IMG/VR virus record: IMGVR_UViG_3300032053_000007
Length of the DNA: 64,000 bases
Source of the DNA: a virus
Taxonomy: Duplodnaviria; Heunggongvirae; Uroviricota; Caudoviricetes
Reading direction: 5' to 3' (one strand)
The position numbers and the translations under genes are program-made. Below are positions 8,615 through 56,288 of this stretch, in pieces (position 1 is the stretch's first letter; each line of letters begins with the position of its first letter). Under the pieces are notes generated by a model. It saw only the letters and a program-made list of their open reading frames with translations, did no database searches and was not told the DNA's origin.

Positions 8615-8689
8615 GCAAGAGTGGTGTTAGTGGTAGCATATGGGCTTGCCAAGTCTAAGGCGTGGGTCCGATTCCCGCCTCTTGCACCA
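8615..8689 (+). tRNA. tRNA-Gly(GCC)
   Basis: Loop TT-GCC-AA, CCA. Confidence 0.92.
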
Positions 8690-8694
8690 ATAAT

Positions 8695-8770
8695 GCGGGT
8701 GTGGTGTTTAATGGTAACATACGGGTCTTCCAAACCTAAGTTTCGGGTCCGATTCCCGACATCCGCACCA
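8695..8770 (+). tRNA. tRNA-Gly(UCC)
   Basis: Loop CT-TCC-AA, CCA. Confidence 0.92.
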
Positions 8771-8775
8771 GTAAC

Positions 8776-8851
8776 GGGCATGTAGCATAGTCTGGTCCAA
8801 TGCGCCGCCCTTATAAGACGGAGAACACAGGTTCAAATCCTGTCTTGCCCA
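8776..8851 (+). tRNA. tRNA-Ile(UAU)
   Basis: GGGC start, loop CT-TAT-AA, A73. Confidence 0.88.
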
Positions 8852-8854
8852 CTC

Positions 8855-8928
8855 GCACCTATAGCATAACAAGGTTAGTGCGCTGGACCCTTAATCCAGA
8901 CATTCGGGTTCAAATCCCGATAGGTGCA
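8855..8928 (+). tRNA. tRNA-Lys(CUU), C33
   Basis: CTGGA/TCCAG stem, loop CC-CTT-AA. Confidence 0.87.
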
Positions 8929-8933
8929 CTCGC

Positions 8934-9007
8934 GGACCATTAGCATAGCAAGGTTAGTGCAGGGGACCTTTAATCCCCGTACACGGGTTCAAATCCCGTA
9001 TGGTCCT
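8934..9007 (+). tRNA. tRNA-Lys(UUU), C33
   Basis: GGGGA/TCCCC stem, loop CC-TTT-AA. Confidence 0.87.
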
Positions 9008-9012
9008 TTCGT

Positions 9013-9081
9013 GACTTGGGAGCTACGGTAGCAAGGTGGTCTGTGAAGCCACTTCAGACGGTTCAACTCCGTCCCCAAGTC
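9013..9081 (+). tRNA. tRNA-His(GUG) with encoded G-1
   Basis: G-1:C73, loop CT-GTG-AA, short D arm. Confidence 0.85.
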
Positions 9082-9084
9082 CTC

Positions 9085-9157
9085 GCCGATTTAGAACAAC
9101 GGGAGTTCGCCCGACTGAAAATCGGGAATGACAGAGGTTCAATTCCTCTAGTCGGCA
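9085..9157 (+). tRNA. tRNA-Phe(GAA)
   Basis: Loop CT-GAA-AA, full cloverleaf. Confidence 0.92.
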
Positions 9158-9160
9158 TCT

Positions 9161-9232
9161 GCCGCTCTAGCATAATGGTAGTGTACCGCCCTGTTAAGGC
9201 GGAAGGTGTAGGTCCGATTCCTACGGGCGGCG
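9161..9232 (+). tRNA. tRNA-Asn(GUU)
   Basis: Loop CT-GTT-AA, G73. Confidence 0.92.
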
Positions 9233-9233
9233 C

Positions 9234-9310
9234 GGAGATATAGTTTAACAGATTAGAATGCCCGCCTTCGAAGCGGTAAGATGAGAGTGCAACTCTCTCT
9301 ATCTCCACCA
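9234..9310 (+). tRNA. tRNA-Arg(UCG)
   Basis: Loop CT-TCG-AA, CCA. Confidence 0.9.
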
Positions 9311-9315
9311 AATAT

Positions 9316-9390
9316 GGGGTGTTCAGTTAATAGGAAGGCTCTGGTCTCCAAAACCAGATACAGAGGTTCGAATCCTCTACTACCCCACCA
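9316..9390 (+). tRNA. tRNA-Trp(CCA)
   Basis: Loop CT-CCA-AA, CCA end; extra nucleotide in acceptor stem. Confidence 0.87.
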
Positions 9391-9391
9391 C

Positions 9392-9466
9392 GGTCCATTA
9401 GTGTATCAGAGAGCATATGACTCTTACAAAGTCATGGGCATGGTGCGACTCCATGATGGACCACCA
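9392..9466 (+). tRNA. tRNA-Val(UAC)
   Basis: Loop CT-TAC-AA, CCA. Confidence 0.92.
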
Positions 9467-9470
9467 ATAT

Positions 9471-9546
9471 GGGGATTTGGTGTAACTTGGAAGCATCGGT
9501 GGCTTGGAACCATCAGGTGAGGGTTCAAATCCTTCTATCCCCACCA
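9471..9546 (+). tRNA. tRNA-Pro(UGG)
   Basis: Loop CT-TGG-AA, CCA. Confidence 0.9.
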
Positions 9547-9551
9547 ATCGC

Positions 9552-9627
9552 CCCTCTGTCGTCTAACAGACTAGGACCTTCGGCTGTAAACCGAATGATT
9601 CCTGTGCAACTCAGGACAGGGGGACCA
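9552..9627 (+). tRNA. tRNA-Tyr(GUA)
   Basis: Archaeal-type C1:G72, short variable loop, loop CT-GTA-AA, CCA. Confidence 0.92.
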
Positions 9628-9633
9628 ATCAAT

Positions 9634-9708
9634 GGATGCGTAGTGTAGCGGTCAACACACCAGCCTGTCACGTTGGAAGCGCGGGTTCGAATCCCGCCGT
9701 ATCCGCCA
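9634..9708 (+). tRNA. tRNA-Asp(GUC)
   Basis: Loop CT-GTC-AC, G73-CCA. Confidence 0.93.
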
Positions 9709-9751
9709 TAACCTTTATATAGCCGTTTGACATTAATATATTGGGATTAAA

Positions 9752-10363
9752 ATGGCAACTGATATGTGAATCCGAAAAGAGAATTCTACTATTTTGATTA
9801 CGTTAAGTGTTGCCAAAGGTTCTAATAATATTCCTGTAGTCAAACAGCTTAGACGAGAATGTAACACAGCTTCTAATATCAAAGATAATAATACTCGCAA
9901 AAAGGTCTTGAAAGCATTAAACAAACTAATAGTCGAAGTTTCACAAACTCTTGTTGAAGACGGCTATCTAATGTTTGCCGCTTATGATGGTGTCTGAACG
10001 ATTAGACCGCCTTTGCCAGTTACCAGAAACTTCTACGACTGTGGCAAGCGGTTTGAAATTGAGTATTTGAGAAGCCTCTACTCTAATAACCCAAAAATTG
10101 GTATAATTAATCTATCAACTAAAGAGGCTATTATCTCTATCCGAGAAGGTGAATTTGAAGCTGTAAAGTTAAGATTGACTTCTGGAATAGGCGGGCAACA
10201 CAAGAAAGGCGGCTCAAGTTCTGGAAGATTCTATAGAAAACGAGAAGAAGAAATTAACTTTTTCTTTAGAAAAGTCCATAATCGTTCCAGAGATTTCCAA
10301 GTTAACCGATGGGAAATTAGGGGAGACAAAGATATGGTGAAAAGGTATTCTTCATTTGATTAA
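9752..10363 (+). CDS. aRF1/eRF1-like release factor homolog (N and partial M domains) interrupted by two in-frame TGA; readthrough gene or pseudogene
   Basis: One frame from ATG 9752 with TGA at 9767-9769 and 9995-9997; TASNIKD, PP.PV..YDCGKRF (YxCxxxF), HKKGGSS at the GGQ position. Confidence 0.85.
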
Positions 10364-10410
10364 ACCAAAAGGTTTATATAGAGGTATTGACATATATTAA
10401 GGCTACCTAT

Positions 10411-10566
10411 GCGGGCGTAGGGAATCAGAAAACCCAGAGAACGAAAAGTCTGGATGGCTTAAATCTGGATGGCTCAAATCCAAGTCTGGATGGCTAAGAT
10501 TCATTCCCGATAGAGCAAACCCCTTGCTTAGTTGCTGTGGGAGTGCAAATCTCCCCGCCCGTACCA
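10411..10566 (+). tRNA. tRNA-Leu precursor with three tandem anticodon modules (UAA, CAA, AAG)
   Basis: GCGGGCG/CGCCCGT-A-CCA, D arm GGG/CCC, long variable arm, T arm; TCTGGATGGCT x3, each followed by a Leu anticodon. Confidence 0.7.
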
Positions 10567-10579
10567 TTAACTAAAATAA

Positions 10580-10653
10580 TGCGGGATAAGATAACGACAG
10601 TCAGTTGGACTCATAATCCAACAGCGACAGTTTAACTCTGTCTCCCGCAACCA
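10580..10653 (+). tRNA. tRNA-Met(CAU) (elongator/initiator/Ile2 not resolved)
   Basis: TTGGA/TCCAA stem, loop CT-CAT-AA, CCA; atypical T loop TTTAACT. Confidence 0.75.
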
Positions 10654-10793
10654 AAAGATTTATATAGTTGTTTTGTATTATATTTGTGGTAAGTGATTGA
10701 CATGATATTCGAAACTCTTCCTAATTGTCACGACTTGGGTATCAGTAGTCAGTCCACTTGTCAGTCGTCAGCCTAAATTTTTTATCCGTTTGT

Positions 10794-10881
10794 GGCAGGG
10801 TGGCAGAATCAGGTATTGCACCCGTCCTGAAAACGGTGTTCCCTTATGGGAATAGGGGTTCAAATCCTCTCCCTGTCGCCA
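10794..10881 (+). tRNA. tRNA-Ser(UGA), C33
   Basis: Long variable arm, G73-CCA, loop CC-TGA-AA. Confidence 0.88.
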
Positions 10882-10886
10882 TTGAT

Positions 10887-10975
10887 GGTAGGTTGGCTGA
10901 GTGGTTTAAGGTACTGGTTTGCTAAACCAGCGTTCCCATGTGGAACCGAGAGTTCGAATCTCTCACCTACCGCCA
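10887..10975 (+). tRNA. tRNA-Ser(GCU)
   Basis: Long variable arm, loop TT-GCT-AA, G73-CCA. Confidence 0.93.
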
Positions 10976-10985
10976 TTAACTTTGC

Positions 10986-11060
10986 GCGAGTATGCCGAAG
11001 TCTGGTTAACGGGGCGGTCCGCAAAACCGTTATTCGGCGGTTCAAATCCGCCTACTCGCT
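10986..11060 (+). tRNA. tRNA-Cys(GCA), C33
   Basis: U73, loop CC-GCA-AA. Confidence 0.87.
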
Positions 11061-11064
11061 CTTT

Positions 11065-17099: not shown

Positions 17100-17692
17100 T
17101 TGGTATCCCCACTATTATAGTGTTGTTCTTCCTTATAAATGTTTCGGTGAAGAGTTTGTCCTTTTAGATGTATAGCTTCCATAGGGAGAGTTTCGACCTT
17201 CAACTCCTTCTTCATCAATTTGTCCCACATATGATTGCATTCGCACATAGACGGTTGTTTGGTGGTAAGTCTCCAATCATAAAGTTCTTTAAGTTGTTCT
17301 GTTCTCCAAACACTATTTCCAAAACCGAGATGATGGTTGTTGTTAAATGGTTCGGCATATTCAGCAGTAACCGCTCCAACTTCTGGGCGCGCTTCTAATA
17401 TTGCTATAGCCTGTTCTATATATCCTTTTGGAAGAACAGTATCAACATCAAGATTAAGAACATATTTGGTTTTGACGAATTCCAATCCGAATCGCCGAGC
17501 GAACCAGAAAGAAGTATTCTGAGTGAAATATTGTATGTTCATATTTCCCTGTTGGTTTAAGAACAAAAATTTGTCCCCACCTTTTTTATCTACAATTATG
17601 ATGGGGTGTTTGACTAAGATTTCATAGTTTTCTTGAATAGAACGTTCTATTATTTTGTCTTCTTCATAACAGGGAATCAATATTGTTATCAT
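17096..17692 (-). CDS. Glycosyltransferase family 2
   Basis: ITILIPCYEE, IIIVD, VLNLDVDT (DxD). Confidence 0.85.
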   Translation of the reverse strand: MITILIPCYEEDKIIERSIQENYEILVKHPIIIVDKKGGDKFLFLNQQGNMNIQYFTQNTSFWFARRFGLEFVKTKYVLNLDVDTVLPKGYIEQAIAILEARPEVGAVTAEYAEPFNNNHHLGFGNSVWRTEQLKELYDWRLTTKQPSMCECNHMWDKLMKKELKVETLPMEAIHLKGQTLHRNIYKEEQHYNSGDTK

Positions 17693-54537: not shown

Positions 54538-55005
54538 ATGACAGAACAACCAGAAAAACGTGAAGCATTACCCGCGCCAGAAGAGAAAAAGAAGCAAATG
54601 CTTCATTTGGATATTGATTTGGAAGACCTCTTTACTAAGATTCCGCCACATGTAACCCCAGAAAATCAAGCTATCTGGAAAAATAAAATAGATATGAGCG
54701 AAGATTATATTAAATTGAACCGAACTCTTCAAGTCTTGGCTATGTATCTCGCTAGAGCTTGTAATGAGGGACCAGAAGTTAAAGATAATATCAATAAACG
54801 TCTAGCTCTTGTATCTACAATTCTAAGAGTCCTTTTTGATAATTTGGCTATTACTGGTTATGATGCTTATGGGCTTTTAACCGAATTACTTATGGATACT
54901 CATATGAAGATTAGCGGGAAAAGACATGTCATAAATATTCTCGCTCAGATTGAAGAGGCGAAAGAACAAATCGCCCAAGAAAAATCATCAGAATATACGA
55001 GTTGA
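54538..55005 (+). CDS. Hypothetical protein
   Basis: 155-aa helical ORF. Confidence 0.65.
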   Translation: MTEQPEKREALPAPEEKKKQMLHLDIDLEDLFTKIPPHVTPENQAIWKNKIDMSEDYIKLNRTLQVLAMYLARACNEGPEVKDNINKRLALVSTILRVLFDNLAITGYDAYGLLTELLMDTHMKISGKRHVINILAQIEEAKEQIAQEKSSEYTS

Positions 55006-55011
55006 TAAAAT

Positions 55012-55296
55012 ATGACAGAACAACCAAAACAAGAACAAGAACAACTTCCAGTTGACGAAGCCATCCAAGTCATAGACTACCGCACCATCTATAAAACTCA
55101 AAAATGGTGGTGTGCCGTCTTGCTCGGCAACATGTTTGGGCATGATAAGATAATGGTCTATCTCTGGCAATGGAATGATAAAATGGGCGGCTGGAAACGA
55201 AAACAGAAAATGGGAATAAATTTCGAAAAGGATTGGGAAAACATCAAAAAGGCAGTAGATGAGTTCATGCCTAGAATTAGGACGGCGACAGGTTAA
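55012..55296 (+). CDS. Possible PC4-like ssDNA-binding protein
   Basis: Beta-rich, Trp-rich, C-terminal helix; upstream of RadA. Confidence 0.45.
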   Translation: MTEQPKQEQEQLPVDEAIQVIDYRTIYKTQKWWCAVLLGNMFGHDKIMVYLWQWNDKMGGWKRKQKMGINFEKDWENIKKAVDEFMPRIRTATG

Positions 55297-56288
55297 TGCC
55301 AGAGGAAACACAAAAGCAAATTACAGATATTATAGGCGATTTGGCAGACCAAAAAGAGAAGAAGATAGTTCAATTTTACAAAGACCATAAAGGCAAAAAG
55401 ATAAAACCAGTTGACCCATTTGCGGCATATGACAAAGAACAGGCTCAGATAAAACTCAAAACTGGGACGCTTATTGATGATATGATAGGCGGCGGATTTG
55501 AGGCTGGTTCGTCCATGCTTCTCTTTGGAGAATATGGTTCTGGAAAGACAGAAACCTGTTTTACAGTTGCAGTTTTATGCCCAGATACAGTCATTTACAT
55601 TGATTGTGAAGGTTCATTCAAATGGTCCAGAATAAAAGAGATGTGTGACTCAAGAAAATTAGATTATAAAGTTGTCTTTGCCAAAATCAAACTGTTTCAG
55701 CCAGCAAATTGGGTCGAACTAATGATGACTCTTGCACAATTGCCATCGCCAGCAGACGAAGGCATAGGAAAAATTGGCGTGATAATCATCGACTCATTGA
55801 CAAAATTATTCCGTGGAATAGAATTTGCGGGACGACAGGAACTTCAAGTGAAGCAACCACCGATTAGGGAACTTATGATAACTGGAACAGAAATAGCAAA
55901 GGCTTACGAATGCGCTCTGATATTCACTACACAAATCTATGAGTCGCCTAATGCTAGTGCATTTATGCCAAAATGGGCAAGTTTCCACGCGGTTGGTGGG
56001 GCATCAATAGAACACCAAGCCTCATATGTTATGTTCCTAAGACGGGCACAGGGAAACCTTCGCATTGCACGACTAACTGATTCAGATTGGAAACCTTTAT
56101 CTGAGCGACCATATCTCATAACTATTAATGGAATAGAGGATTTACCAGATACCCAGAAAGCGGCAGAAGTTCTTGAAAAAGCAGAATCATATGAAAGAGA
56201 AATGGCTGAAAAGCTAAAAGACAAAGAGAAAAAGAAGAAGAAAGGCGAAGAGCAGACAGAAGAAAAAATGGAGCAACCCCCAGTTTAG
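55296..56288 (+). CDS. radA: RadA/Rad51-like recombinase
   Basis: TG..ID.MIGGG, GEYGSGKT, YIDCEGSF, IIIDSLT. Confidence 0.9.
   Translation: MPEETQKQITDIIGDLADQKEKKIVQFYKDHKGKKIKPVDPFAAYDKEQAQIKLKTGTLIDDMIGGGFEAGSSMLLFGEYGSGKTETCFTVAVLCPDTVIYIDCEGSFKWSRIKEMCDSRKLDYKVVFAKIKLFQPANWVELMMTLAQLPSPADEGIGKIGVIIIDSLTKLFRGIEFAGRQELQVKQPPIRELMITGTEIAKAYECALIFTTQIYESPNASAFMPKWASFHAVGGASIEHQASYVMFLRRAQGNLRIARLTDSDWKPLSERPYLITINGIEDLPDTQKAAEVLEKAESYEREMAEKLKDKEKKKKKGEEQTEEKMEQPPV

What the first reader, a model, noticed from the sequence alone, without database searches (positions are those of the whole stretch)
9752..10363. aRF1 homolog with two in-frame UGA codons, GGQ changed to GGS, and no C domain
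Seen: the two track ORFs (9794-9997, 10013-10363) share a frame with ATG 9752, giving MATDM*IRKENSTILITL..ECNTASNIKD..AAYDGV*TIRPPLPVTRNFYDCGKRF..HKKGGSSSGRF with no frameshift. Known: TASNIKS and YxCxxxF recognise stop codons; GGQ hydrolyses peptidyl-tRNA; the C domain binds aEF1-alpha/eRF3; mimivirus-group eRF1 genes contain internal stops bypassed by recoding, similar to RF2 autoregulation. Inference: the protein is made only when UGA termination is weak, and may act as a hydrolysis-dead stop-codon binder that modulates termination. Alternative: a pseudogene from two TGG-to-TGA changes, since Trp fits both contexts.
Basis: partly seen in the sequence, partly recalled or inferred. Interest (0 to 1): 0.9.

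Follow-up and report, generated by a model that had tools for sequence, protein, structure and literature searches.

The report
Viral mini release factor needing UGA readthrough
A probable archaeal virus carries, inside its tRNA gene cluster, a half-size copy of the protein that ends translation, and this gene and all nine sequenced relatives contain conserved in-frame UGA stops, often where relatives have tryptophan, so the protein can probably be completed only when termination at UGA fails.

Summary
Window 9752-10363 (+) is one 203-codon frame with TGA at codons 6 and 82. It is homologous to aRF1/eRF1 on both sides of the stops. It has NTASNIKD and YDCGKRF, GGS where GGQ should be, and no C domain.

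It is not a pseudogene. dN/dS is 0.14-0.19, and similar on both sides of codon 82. All 10 distinct family genes for which DNA was available carry at least one in-frame TGA. There are 15 such TGAs, never TAA or TAG, and every one is followed by A. They fall at four recurrent sites. At two of these sites, other members or cellular aRF1 have TGG (Trp).

TGA is a normal terminator elsewhere in this virus (16 of 73 ORFs). No UCA-anticodon tRNA was found. The short proteins form one well-supported clade separate from full-length aRF1. Most members keep GGQ; GGS marks one subclade.

Best reading: programmed UGA readthrough, probably by Trp-tRNA, ties synthesis of a GTPase-independent mini release factor to termination efficiency. 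This resembles Mimivirus R726 and bacterial prfB. Whether the GGS form hydrolyses peptidyl-tRNA is untested.

This scan noted the same kind of gene earlier on other DNA (e1-1858492). I found no paper describing it.

The parts
9714..9721 (+). TATA-box-like promoter element (TTTATATA) about 31-38 nt upstream of the ATG, directly after tRNA-Asp. The gene is its own transcription unit inside the tRNA array.
   Evidence: Sequence. The same arrangement lies upstream of the L001 orthologue. The related motif GGTTTATATA is enriched in the window, 24 matches against 6.6 expected.
9752..10363 (+). Mini aRF1-like gene: 203 codons plus TAA. It covers the N (stop-codon recognition) domain plus the core of the M domain, with no C domain.
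   Evidence: Pfam eRF1_2, E 1e-5; aRF1 3agk E 5e-15; AF2 pLDDT 96.3; Foldseek match to eRF1, TMq 0.89.
9767..9769 (+). In-frame TGA 1 (codon 6, 'site A'), context TGA-A.
   Evidence: TGA is kept at the same place in L001 (91% identity) and L003 (64% identity). It is identical in contigs of runs X6, X7 and X8.
9863..9886 (+). NTASNIKD, the NIKS-type stop-codon recognition motif.
   Evidence: Aligned to TASNIKS of eRF1. Cellular aRF1 loci L004-L006 carry the identical NTASNIKD.
9995..9997 (+). In-frame TGA 2 (codon 82, 'site C'), context TGA-A. It lies in a predicted beta-strand and is aligned with Trp of cellular aRF1.
   Evidence: TGA here in 7 lineages, TGG in L010 and L012, TTA in L001. Cellular aRF1 has W at this position (RLWSLEPP). 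Predicted strand 80-84.
10034..10054 (+). YDCGKRF, the YxCxxxF stop-codon recognition motif.
   Evidence: Aligned to YLCDNKF of eRF1.
10190..10198 (+). GGQ tripeptide five residues upstream of the canonical position. It is not conserved in relatives.
   Evidence: GGQ in window, L001 and P0008; HGQ in L003; GNQ in P0004; SGQ in L047.
10208..10216 (+). GGS at the position of the catalytic GGQ, immediately before the long M-domain helix.
   Evidence: HMMER alignment to aRF1/eRF1 and model secondary structure. The subclade has GGS, with GDS in L001.
10310..10312 (+). TGG Trp187 (RWEIRGDK). The homologous codon is an in-frame TGA ('site D') in relatives L047/L048.
10361..10363 (+). Genuine terminator TAA.
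   Evidence: The true stops of all nine family genes that could be followed to their end are TAA or TAG.
9316..9390 (+). Virus-encoded tRNA-Trp (anticodon CCA), the likely near-cognate decoder of UGA, 360 nt upstream in the same array.
   Evidence: A second mini-aRF1 virus (G002) also encodes tRNA-Trp(CCA) and no UCA tRNA. Neither tRNA has a Hirsh-type A24.
8228..11061 (+). Array of 22 tRNA genes that encloses the gene.
   Evidence: ARAGORN; Rfam.

Best explanation
The gene encodes a virus-specific miniature class-I release factor. It has the stop-codon-reading N domain plus the core of the peptidyl-tRNA-hydrolysis M domain, and it lacks the C domain that binds the GTPase.

Its mRNA carries two in-frame UGA codons, so full-length protein forms only when ribosomes read through both. 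The most likely route is insertion of Trp by near-cognate Trp-tRNA(CCA), which the virus itself supplies. Output therefore rises steeply when termination at UGA is inefficient and falls when it is efficient. That makes a termination-sensing circuit of the prfB / Mimivirus R726 type, built here from plain readthrough.

Shown: the stops are real, conserved and under selection, and the gene is a monophyletic truncated aRF1 derivative.

Inferred: readthrough with Trp, and the feedback logic.

Open: whether the GGS form still releases peptides or only occupies stop codons.
For: (1) Purifying selection on both sides of codon 82: dN/dS window-L001 is 0.24 before and 0.09 after; window-L003 is 0.15 before and 0.23 after, at dS 1.4-1.9. 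Under neutral drift at that divergence, two TGA codons would both survive with probability of about 0.002 (my Jukes-Cantor estimate).

(2) All 10 distinct family genes with DNA have at least one in-frame TGA. There are 15 in all, none TAA or TAG, and all are followed by A.

(3) Four recurrent sites. Site C is TGA in 7 lineages, TGG in 2 and TTA in 1, and it aligns with Trp of cellular aRF1. Site D is TGA in L047/48 where the window has TGG.

(4) No conserved restart codon follows site C (alignment), and the amino-acid sequence is conserved right across each TGA.

(5) TGA is an ordinary terminator in this virus: 16 of 73 ORFs. The large genes have no in-frame TGA.

(6) No UCA-anticodon tRNA, tRNA-Sec or SECIS hit in the window or in virus G002.

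(7) Control: 38 cellular aRF1 genes are about 415 aa with no internal stops.

(8) The mini family is one clade (100/98 support) with a conserved C-terminal end.

(9) The model is confident (pLDDT 96.3, pTM 0.83). It superposes best on accommodated, ribosome-bound eRF1 (TMq 0.87-0.89) and less well on pre-accommodation or crystal forms (0.43-0.53).

(10) Precedent: Mimivirus R726 needs UGA readthrough at a Trp position (PMC3521657).
Against: There is no expression, proteomic or reporter evidence.

There is no conserved RNA structure after site C.

UGA-A also ends 4 of 16 TGA-terminated ORFs in the window, so the context alone cannot be a strong readthrough signal.

Two serial UGAs imply a very low yield.

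Site C is dispensable as a stop: TTA in L001, TGG in L010 and L012.

The viral tRNA-Trp has no Hirsh-type A24.

In this subclade GGQ is GGS, and GDS in L001. The product may therefore not restore termination, which weakens a simple negative-feedback reading for this particular gene.
Confidence: 0.62

Rival explanations
1. UGA is read as Trp generally in this system, either as the host's code or through a virus-induced or late-phase reassignment. The TGAs would then be ordinary Trp codons and not regulatory stops.
For: TGA and TGG interchange at sites C and D. In L047 every Trp-aligned position is TGA.
Against: 16 of 73 window ORFs end in TGA. No other long gene (PolB, RNR, terminase, 1353- and 1812-aa proteins) has an in-frame TGA. 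No tRNA(UCA) was found in the window or in G002. Sites A and B are not Trp positions in relatives (K/H/Y and L/C/S).
Confidence: 0.1
2. Dual-product gene. The main products are the short peptides that end at the UGAs, for example an 81-residue N-terminal fragment. Readthrough would give a minor second product, so the stops set a fixed ratio and do not sense termination.
For: This design is common in RNA viruses. Both halves are conserved.
Against: Residues 1-81 lack the YxCxxxF strand and half of the N-domain sheet in the model, so they are unlikely to fold alone. Site C can be TGG or TTA without loss of the gene. Site A would give only a 5-residue peptide.
Confidence: 0.1
3. Split gene: the pieces are translated separately from internal starts and assemble into one protein.
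For: Gene callers report separate ORFs, and the window has a TTG at 10013.
Against: No start codon is conserved after site C: L003 and L011 have none within about 26 codons. The pieces are always in the same frame and contiguous, and residues flanking each TGA are conserved.
Confidence: 0.05
4. Pseudogene or assembly error: two TGG-to-TGA changes in a decaying gene.
For: Trp fits codon 82, and the gene is truncated relative to aRF1.
Against: dN/dS is 0.14-0.19. The TGAs are conserved at dS above 1.4. There are no frameshifts and no TAA/TAG in 10 genes. The truncation point is shared by the whole clade. The first TGA is identical in three further runs.
Confidence: 0.03
5. Selenocysteine insertion at the UGAs.
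For: UGA is the Sec codon, and some archaea have the Sec machinery.
Against: The sites exchange with Trp or Leu codons, not with Cys. Site C is a buried strand position. There are up to two sites per gene at varying places. Rfam found no tRNA-Sec or SECIS hit, although archaeal SECIS may not be modelled there.
Confidence: 0.02

Closest known systems
Mimivirus R726 / Megavirus mg280 class-I release factor (Jeudy et al. 2012, PMC3521657)
   Same: A virus-encoded eRF1/aRF1 homologue with a conserved in-frame UGA at a Trp-aligned position. Readthrough by Trp-tRNA is proposed, the virus carries its own tRNA-Trp, the genuine stop is not UGA, and the function is read as autoregulation.
   Different: R726 is full length, with GGQ and a C domain. 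It also needs a +1 frameshift, uses the UGA-C context, and infects a eukaryote. The gene here is half-size, has no frameshift, has one to two UGAs at four alternative sites, always uses UGA-A, sits in an archaeal-type virus, and this subclade has GGS. The viral tRNA-Trp here lacks the Hirsh-like A24.
Bacterial RF2 (prfB) autoregulation
   Same: A release-factor gene interrupted by an in-frame UGA, so that its own synthesis rises when UGA termination is slow.
   Different: prfB escapes by +1 frameshifting with an internal Shine-Dalgarno sequence, and RF2 is unrelated in fold to aRF1. The gene here stays in frame. Whether the product itself recognises UGA is unknown.
Canonical archaeal aRF1 (e.g. 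A. pernix 3agk/3vmf; Pfam eRF1_1/2/3)
   Same: Clear homology over the N domain and the M-domain core (E 5e-15). The NIKS-type and YxCxxxF motifs are intact, and the fold is the same (TMq up to 0.89 to eRF1).
   Different: It lacks the first N-terminal helix, the end of the M domain and the whole C domain that binds aEF1-alpha. GGQ is GGS. Cellular aRF1 genes (38 examined) have no internal stops.
Non-canonical eRF1-fold factors (Pelota/Dom34, Vms1-like VLRF1 / acVLRF1, bacterial Balon)
   Same: eRF1-derived proteins with an altered or lost GGQ that act on ribosomes outside normal termination. This is a possible functional analogy for the GGS subclade.
   Different: Those proteins lack the NIKS/YxCxxxF codon-reading motifs and keep C-terminal domains. 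The Pfam acVLRF1 score is below its cut-off (20 against 27.1 bits). Foldseek matches to Pelota and Balon are much weaker (TMq 0.34-0.45).

Membership tests
Class-I release factor aRF1/eRF1 | N domain with a TASNIKS-type loop and a YxCxxxF motif | tested here: met
   NTASNIKD and YDCGKRF align to the motifs of eRF1/aRF1. The fold matches.
Class-I release factor aRF1/eRF1 | Invariant GGQ at the tip of the M domain | tested here: not met
   GGS aligns with GGQ. Most other members of the mini family keep GGQ.
Class-I release factor aRF1/eRF1 | C domain (eRF1_3) that binds aEF1-alpha/eRF3 | tested here: not met
   The protein ends at about eRF1 residue 230. There is no eRF1_3 hit. The same end is found in the whole clade.
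Class-I release factor aRF1/eRF1 | Stop-codon-dependent peptidyl-tRNA hydrolysis | not testable with these tools
   This needs a biochemical release assay.
Recoded viral release factors (Mimivirus R726 type) | In-frame UGA conserved among diverged orthologues at a Trp-aligned position | tested here: met
   Site C is TGA in 7 lineages and aligns with W of cellular aRF1. Site D exchanges TGA and TGG.
Recoded viral release factors (Mimivirus R726 type) | A second recoding event by +1 frameshift at an internal stop | tested here: not met
   The window, L001, L003, L007, L010-L012, L047 and L049 all use a single frame throughout. Only L046 shifts frame, possibly through an assembly indel.
Recoded viral release factors (Mimivirus R726 type) | Readthrough demonstrated experimentally | not testable with these tools
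   No RNA or protein data were available.
prfB-type autoregulation | In-frame UGA bypassed by +1 frameshift with an upstream SD-like stimulator | tested here: not met
   The downstream sequence continues in frame 0, so no frameshift is needed.
Vms1-like / acVLRF1 release factors | Match to the family profile above its threshold | tested here: not met
   PF18859 scores 20-21 bits against a cut-off of 27.1.

The most novel reading that the evidence does not exclude
In the GGS subclade the product is no longer a release factor. Instead it is a GTPase-independent stop-codon binder that competes with host aRF1. Because its own synthesis needs UGA readthrough, it would form a positive-feedback switch that raises UGA readthrough during infection. 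That would be a virus-controlled, reversible change in the meaning of a stop codon in archaea.
Probability: 0.12. Interest if true: 0.92.

Novelty: new variant of a known kind. Interest (0 to 1): 0.74.

Why it matters
Programmed stop-codon readthrough has hardly been documented in archaeal systems. Release-factor autoregulation by recoding is known only from bacterial prfB and from mimivirus-group giant viruses.

This work adds a whole clade of archaeal-type virus genes that shows the same logic in a third, simpler form: in-frame UGAs at Trp positions, with no frameshift and no RNA structure. The protein has been cut down to the two domains that read the codon and reach the peptidyl-transferase centre.

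That gives three things. First, a natural minimal, GTPase-independent eRF1-type factor to test. Second, a natural GGQ-versus-GGS contrast within one family. Third, a direct handle on how viruses of archaea sense or manipulate termination.

Tried and rejected
Phage database: no DNA or protein match.

IMG/VR scan with the close alignment: nothing. The wider alignment gave L007-L009.

Genome scan for proviral copies: it returned only cellular aRF1 genes of Thermoproteota/Nitrososphaeria-type MAGs, which gave no host clue.

Whole genome of the window: not held. A suppressor tRNA elsewhere in the ~152-kb genome therefore cannot be excluded. Only the window and the 84-kb relative G002 were scanned.

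Conserved RNA structure downstream of site C: RNAalifold predicted no pairs.

Hirsh-type tRNA-Trp: position 24 is G in both viral tRNA-Trp genes.

PTH2 seen weakly next to the L001 orthologue: not recovered in the window's ORFs by Pfam.

RNA runs: no RNA holder listed.

In read laying, the second TGA was covered only by the possible source run.

Literature: six searches found no paper on archaeal-virus mini aRF1. Subscription journals are not covered.

True stops being TAA/TAG in 9 of 9 genes is not significant against the 22% TGA background (P about 0.1 before allowing for relatedness).

Full report
OBSERVATION. Window 9752-10363 (+) reads as one frame from ATG 9752 to TAA 10361. It is broken only by TGA at 9767-9769 (codon 6) and 9995-9997 (codon 82). 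The two mechanical ORFs 9794-9997 and 10013-10363 are parts of this frame. In-frame stops lie 5 and 7 codons upstream of the ATG, so the ATG is the first possible start. With the TGAs read through, the 203-residue product (P0001) matches A. pernix aRF1 (3agk, E 5e-15, residues 12-181) and eRF1 (E about 1e-10) across both stops.

In those alignments NTASNIKD falls on TASNIKS, YDCGKRF on YxCxxxF, and GGS (residues 153-155) on GGQ. A GGQ tripeptide lies five residues upstream (147-149). Pfam detects only the first half of eRF1 domain 2 and no domain 3.

An AlphaFold model built from 57 relatives is very confident (pLDDT 96.3, pTM 0.83). It shows an N domain plus a four-stranded M-domain core, the GGS loop, the long helix, and one more strand and helix. 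The end of the M domain and the whole C domain are missing.

SETTING. The gene sits inside an array of 22 tRNA genes (8228-11061). It lies directly after tRNA-Asp, and a TATA-like box (9714-9721) lies about 31-38 nt before the ATG. Another such box follows its stop codon (10371-10380). The motif GGTTTATATA is enriched in the window, with 24 matches against 6.6 expected.

The window also encodes ribonucleotide reductase, dCMP deaminase, a family-B DNA polymerase, an HNH endonuclease, a terminase-like protein and very large proteins without known domains. Earlier notes of this scan describe the genome as a ~152-kb uncultivated, probably archaeal virus. The promoter pattern and the aRF1 ancestry agree with that. 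The DNA occurs in several sediment metagenomes.

NOT AN ERROR, NOT A PSEUDOGENE. Contigs of three further sediment runs are identical across the first TGA. The second TGA is covered only by a run that may be the source.

The decisive evidence is comparative. The 91%-identical orthologue L001 keeps TGA at codon 6 and has TTA at codon 82. The 64%-identical L003 keeps TGA at both codons. Nei-Gojobori dN/dS is 0.14 (window-L001) and 0.19 (window-L003), and it is similar before and after codon 82 (0.24/0.09 and 0.15/0.23). Synonymous divergence between window and L003 is 1.4-1.9. At that divergence, two neutral TGA codons would both persist with a probability of roughly 0.002 (my Jukes-Cantor estimate).

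A FAMILY TRAIT. An exhaustive profile-free search found 122 proteins at E below 1e-10. The best hits are all short (about 80-250 aa), and full-length aRF1s follow at about 30-36% identity. Many hits are fragments that end exactly at residue 81 or begin just after it, which is what a gene caller produces at an internal stop.

DNA could be fetched for nine further distinct genes. Every one of the ten genes has at least one in-frame TGA. There are 15 in all, never TAA or TAG, and each is followed by A. They occupy four recurrent sites:
- Site A (window codon 6): window, L001, L003.
- Site B (equivalent to window K22): L007, L010, L011, L012.
- Site C (window codon 82): TGA in window, L003, L007, L011, L046, L047/48 and L049; TGG in L010 and L012; TTA in L001.
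- Site D (window Trp187, TGG): TGA in L047/48.

Site C aligns with the Trp of the closest cellular aRF1s (RLWSLEPP). So at two sites TGA and TGG replace one another, and every non-TGA state at site C is one mutation away from TGA.

The genuine terminators of the nine genes that can be followed to their end are TAA or TAG. No start codon is conserved after site C, and RNAalifold finds no conserved structure there.

As a control, 38 cellular genomes each have one aRF1 of about 415 aa without internal stops. A 121-kb viral contig (L008/G003) has a longer aRF1-like ORF without stops.

A maximum-likelihood tree separates the short proteins from full-length aRF1s with 100/98 support. It groups the GGS forms as (L047,(L003,(window,L001))) at 89/87. 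All members end at the same point (...RWEIRGDKDMVKRY...), so the truncation is ancestral to the clade and is not decay.

WHAT DECODES UGA. TGA is an ordinary stop in this virus: 16 of 73 ORFs of at least 70 codons end in TGA, 40 in TAA and 17 in TAG. The long genes have no in-frame TGA. ARAGORN and Rfam find no UCA-anticodon tRNA, tRNA-Sec or SECIS in the window, and none in the 84-kb relative G002, which has 16 tRNAs. Both viruses encode tRNA-Trp(CCA).

From established knowledge, UGA is the leakiest stop codon and is misread mainly by Trp-tRNA. The TGA/TGG interchange fits Trp insertion. Neither viral tRNA-Trp has the Hirsh-type A24 noted for Mimivirus (PMC3521657).

The context UGA-A is invariant at the recoding sites, but it also ends 4 of the 16 TGA-terminated ORFs. 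It can therefore be only a modest contributor, and at site C it is partly explained by the conserved Thr/Ile that follows.

MECHANISM (inference). Full-length product requires readthrough of one or two UGAs, so the yield is the product of the readthrough frequencies. It therefore responds steeply to the balance between aRF1 activity and Trp-tRNA at UGA. This is the logic of prfB and of Mimivirus R726. For R726, UGA readthrough was shown experimentally (in E. coli), and negative correlation with host eRF1 expression was reported.

The protein lacks the domain that docks on aEF1-alpha. The model superposes on accommodated, ribosome-bound eRF1 (6xa1, 5lzu, 3jag; TMq 0.87-0.89) much better than on pre-accommodation or crystal forms (0.43-0.53). 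This suggests a factor that enters the A site already extended, without a GTPase. That reading rests on a prediction only.

For GGQ-bearing members, the simplest reading is a back-up release factor made when termination capacity is short. An untested idea concerns demand: earlier notes report about 85 tiny genes with stop-start overlaps in this genome, which would make termination demand unusually high.

For the window's subclade, Gln is replaced by Ser. The GGSSS motif is conserved at 64% overall identity, and L001 even has GDS. From memory of the mutational literature, the glycines are essential, while changes of the Gln have variable, sometimes modest, effects on hydrolysis. I could not verify this in the paper library. 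The GGS form may therefore be weakened, altered or inactive. 'Hydrolysis-dead binder' is possible but not shown.

COMPARISON AND NOVELTY. The closest known system is the Mimivirus/Megavirus release factor. It shares a viral eRF1 homologue, a conserved UGA at a Trp position, and a viral tRNA-Trp. It differs in being full length, needing an additional +1 frameshift, using the UGA-C context, and having a eukaryotic host.

The gene is an aRF1 derivative by homology and fold, but it fails two defining features of the family (GGQ and the C domain), so I do not file it as a bona fide aRF1. It is not a Pelota, Vms1-like or Balon-type factor either (sub-threshold or weak matches).

Six literature searches found no description of archaeal-virus mini release factors with in-frame UGAs. 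This scan itself noted the same kind of gene earlier in another genome (e1-1858492), along with related cases (e1-1731342, e1-1697535). My results were obtained independently here and agree with them.

I rate it a new variant of a known kind. The principle is known. The simple multi-site UGA-at-Trp design, the truncated architecture, the archaeal-virus setting and the GGQ/GGS split are new.

VERDICT. The recoding interpretation is supported by strong comparative evidence, and the pseudogene alternative is rejected. The biochemical role of the GGS protein is open. Confidence that the in-frame UGAs are selected, functional features is about 0.85. Confidence in the full termination-sensing readthrough model is about 0.6.

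Noticed in passing
window 10404-10566: Between the gene's stop and tRNA-Met lies a promoter-preceded stretch with three tandem copies of GTCTGGATGGCT. ARAGORN and Rfam call no tRNA here, although Leu, Thr and Gln tRNAs are missing from the array.
   Followed up: no
window 9316-9390: The viral tRNA-Trp(CCA) is aberrant. It has C instead of the near-universal U at position 8, a U-C mismatch in the acceptor stem, and the lowest clean Rfam score in the array (41 bits). Position 24 is G, so it is not Hirsh-like.
   Followed up: partly
L046 976-1588: This family member has TGA-A at site C, and then its M-domain part continues in the +1 frame (second ORF 1265-1588). This is either a homopolymer indel in a long-read-style contig or a second recoding event like the Mimivirus frameshift.
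   Followed up: no
P0005 (ENA ERZ27247924, 635-nt contig, no DNA available): The protein has a membrane (VTT/DedA-like, weak) N-terminus. Its last 29 residues are identical to window residues 53-81 and stop at the same place. It is probably a chimeric contig, but it independently supports a stop after ...DGV.
   Followed up: no
window 9712-9745 and 10369-10400; L001 4050-4085 and 4716-4745: The gene is bracketed by a two-part cassette, (G/C)(G/C)TTTATATA, then 6-7 nt, then TTGACAT plus an AT-rich run. It is conserved in the orthologous locus and matches the promoter cassette noted earlier for this genome.
   Followed up: partly
L008 / G003 (IMG/VR UViG, 121 kb, 92% complete), 4890-5880: Another large virus-like contig encodes a longer aRF1-like ORF (about 329 aa) with GGQ, a divergent DNIKS loop and no internal stops. 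In the tree it groups with full-length aRF1s. Viral release factors of archaeal type therefore come in at least two architectures.
   Followed up: partly
L001 versus window 5542-9752: The 91%-identical relative has the same RNR ... mini-aRF1 ... HNH ... PolB order, but only one tRNA gene (Cys), where the window has 18 tRNAs between RNR and the mini-aRF1. The tRNA array is therefore a recent gain or loss around a fixed release-factor gene.
   Followed up: partly
window 17689-17691, 54538-55005, 54988-55311(-): Several TGA terminators are immediately backed up by a second stop (TGA TAA, TGA TGA). This would limit the damage from UGA readthrough. The count is too small to test.
   Followed up: no
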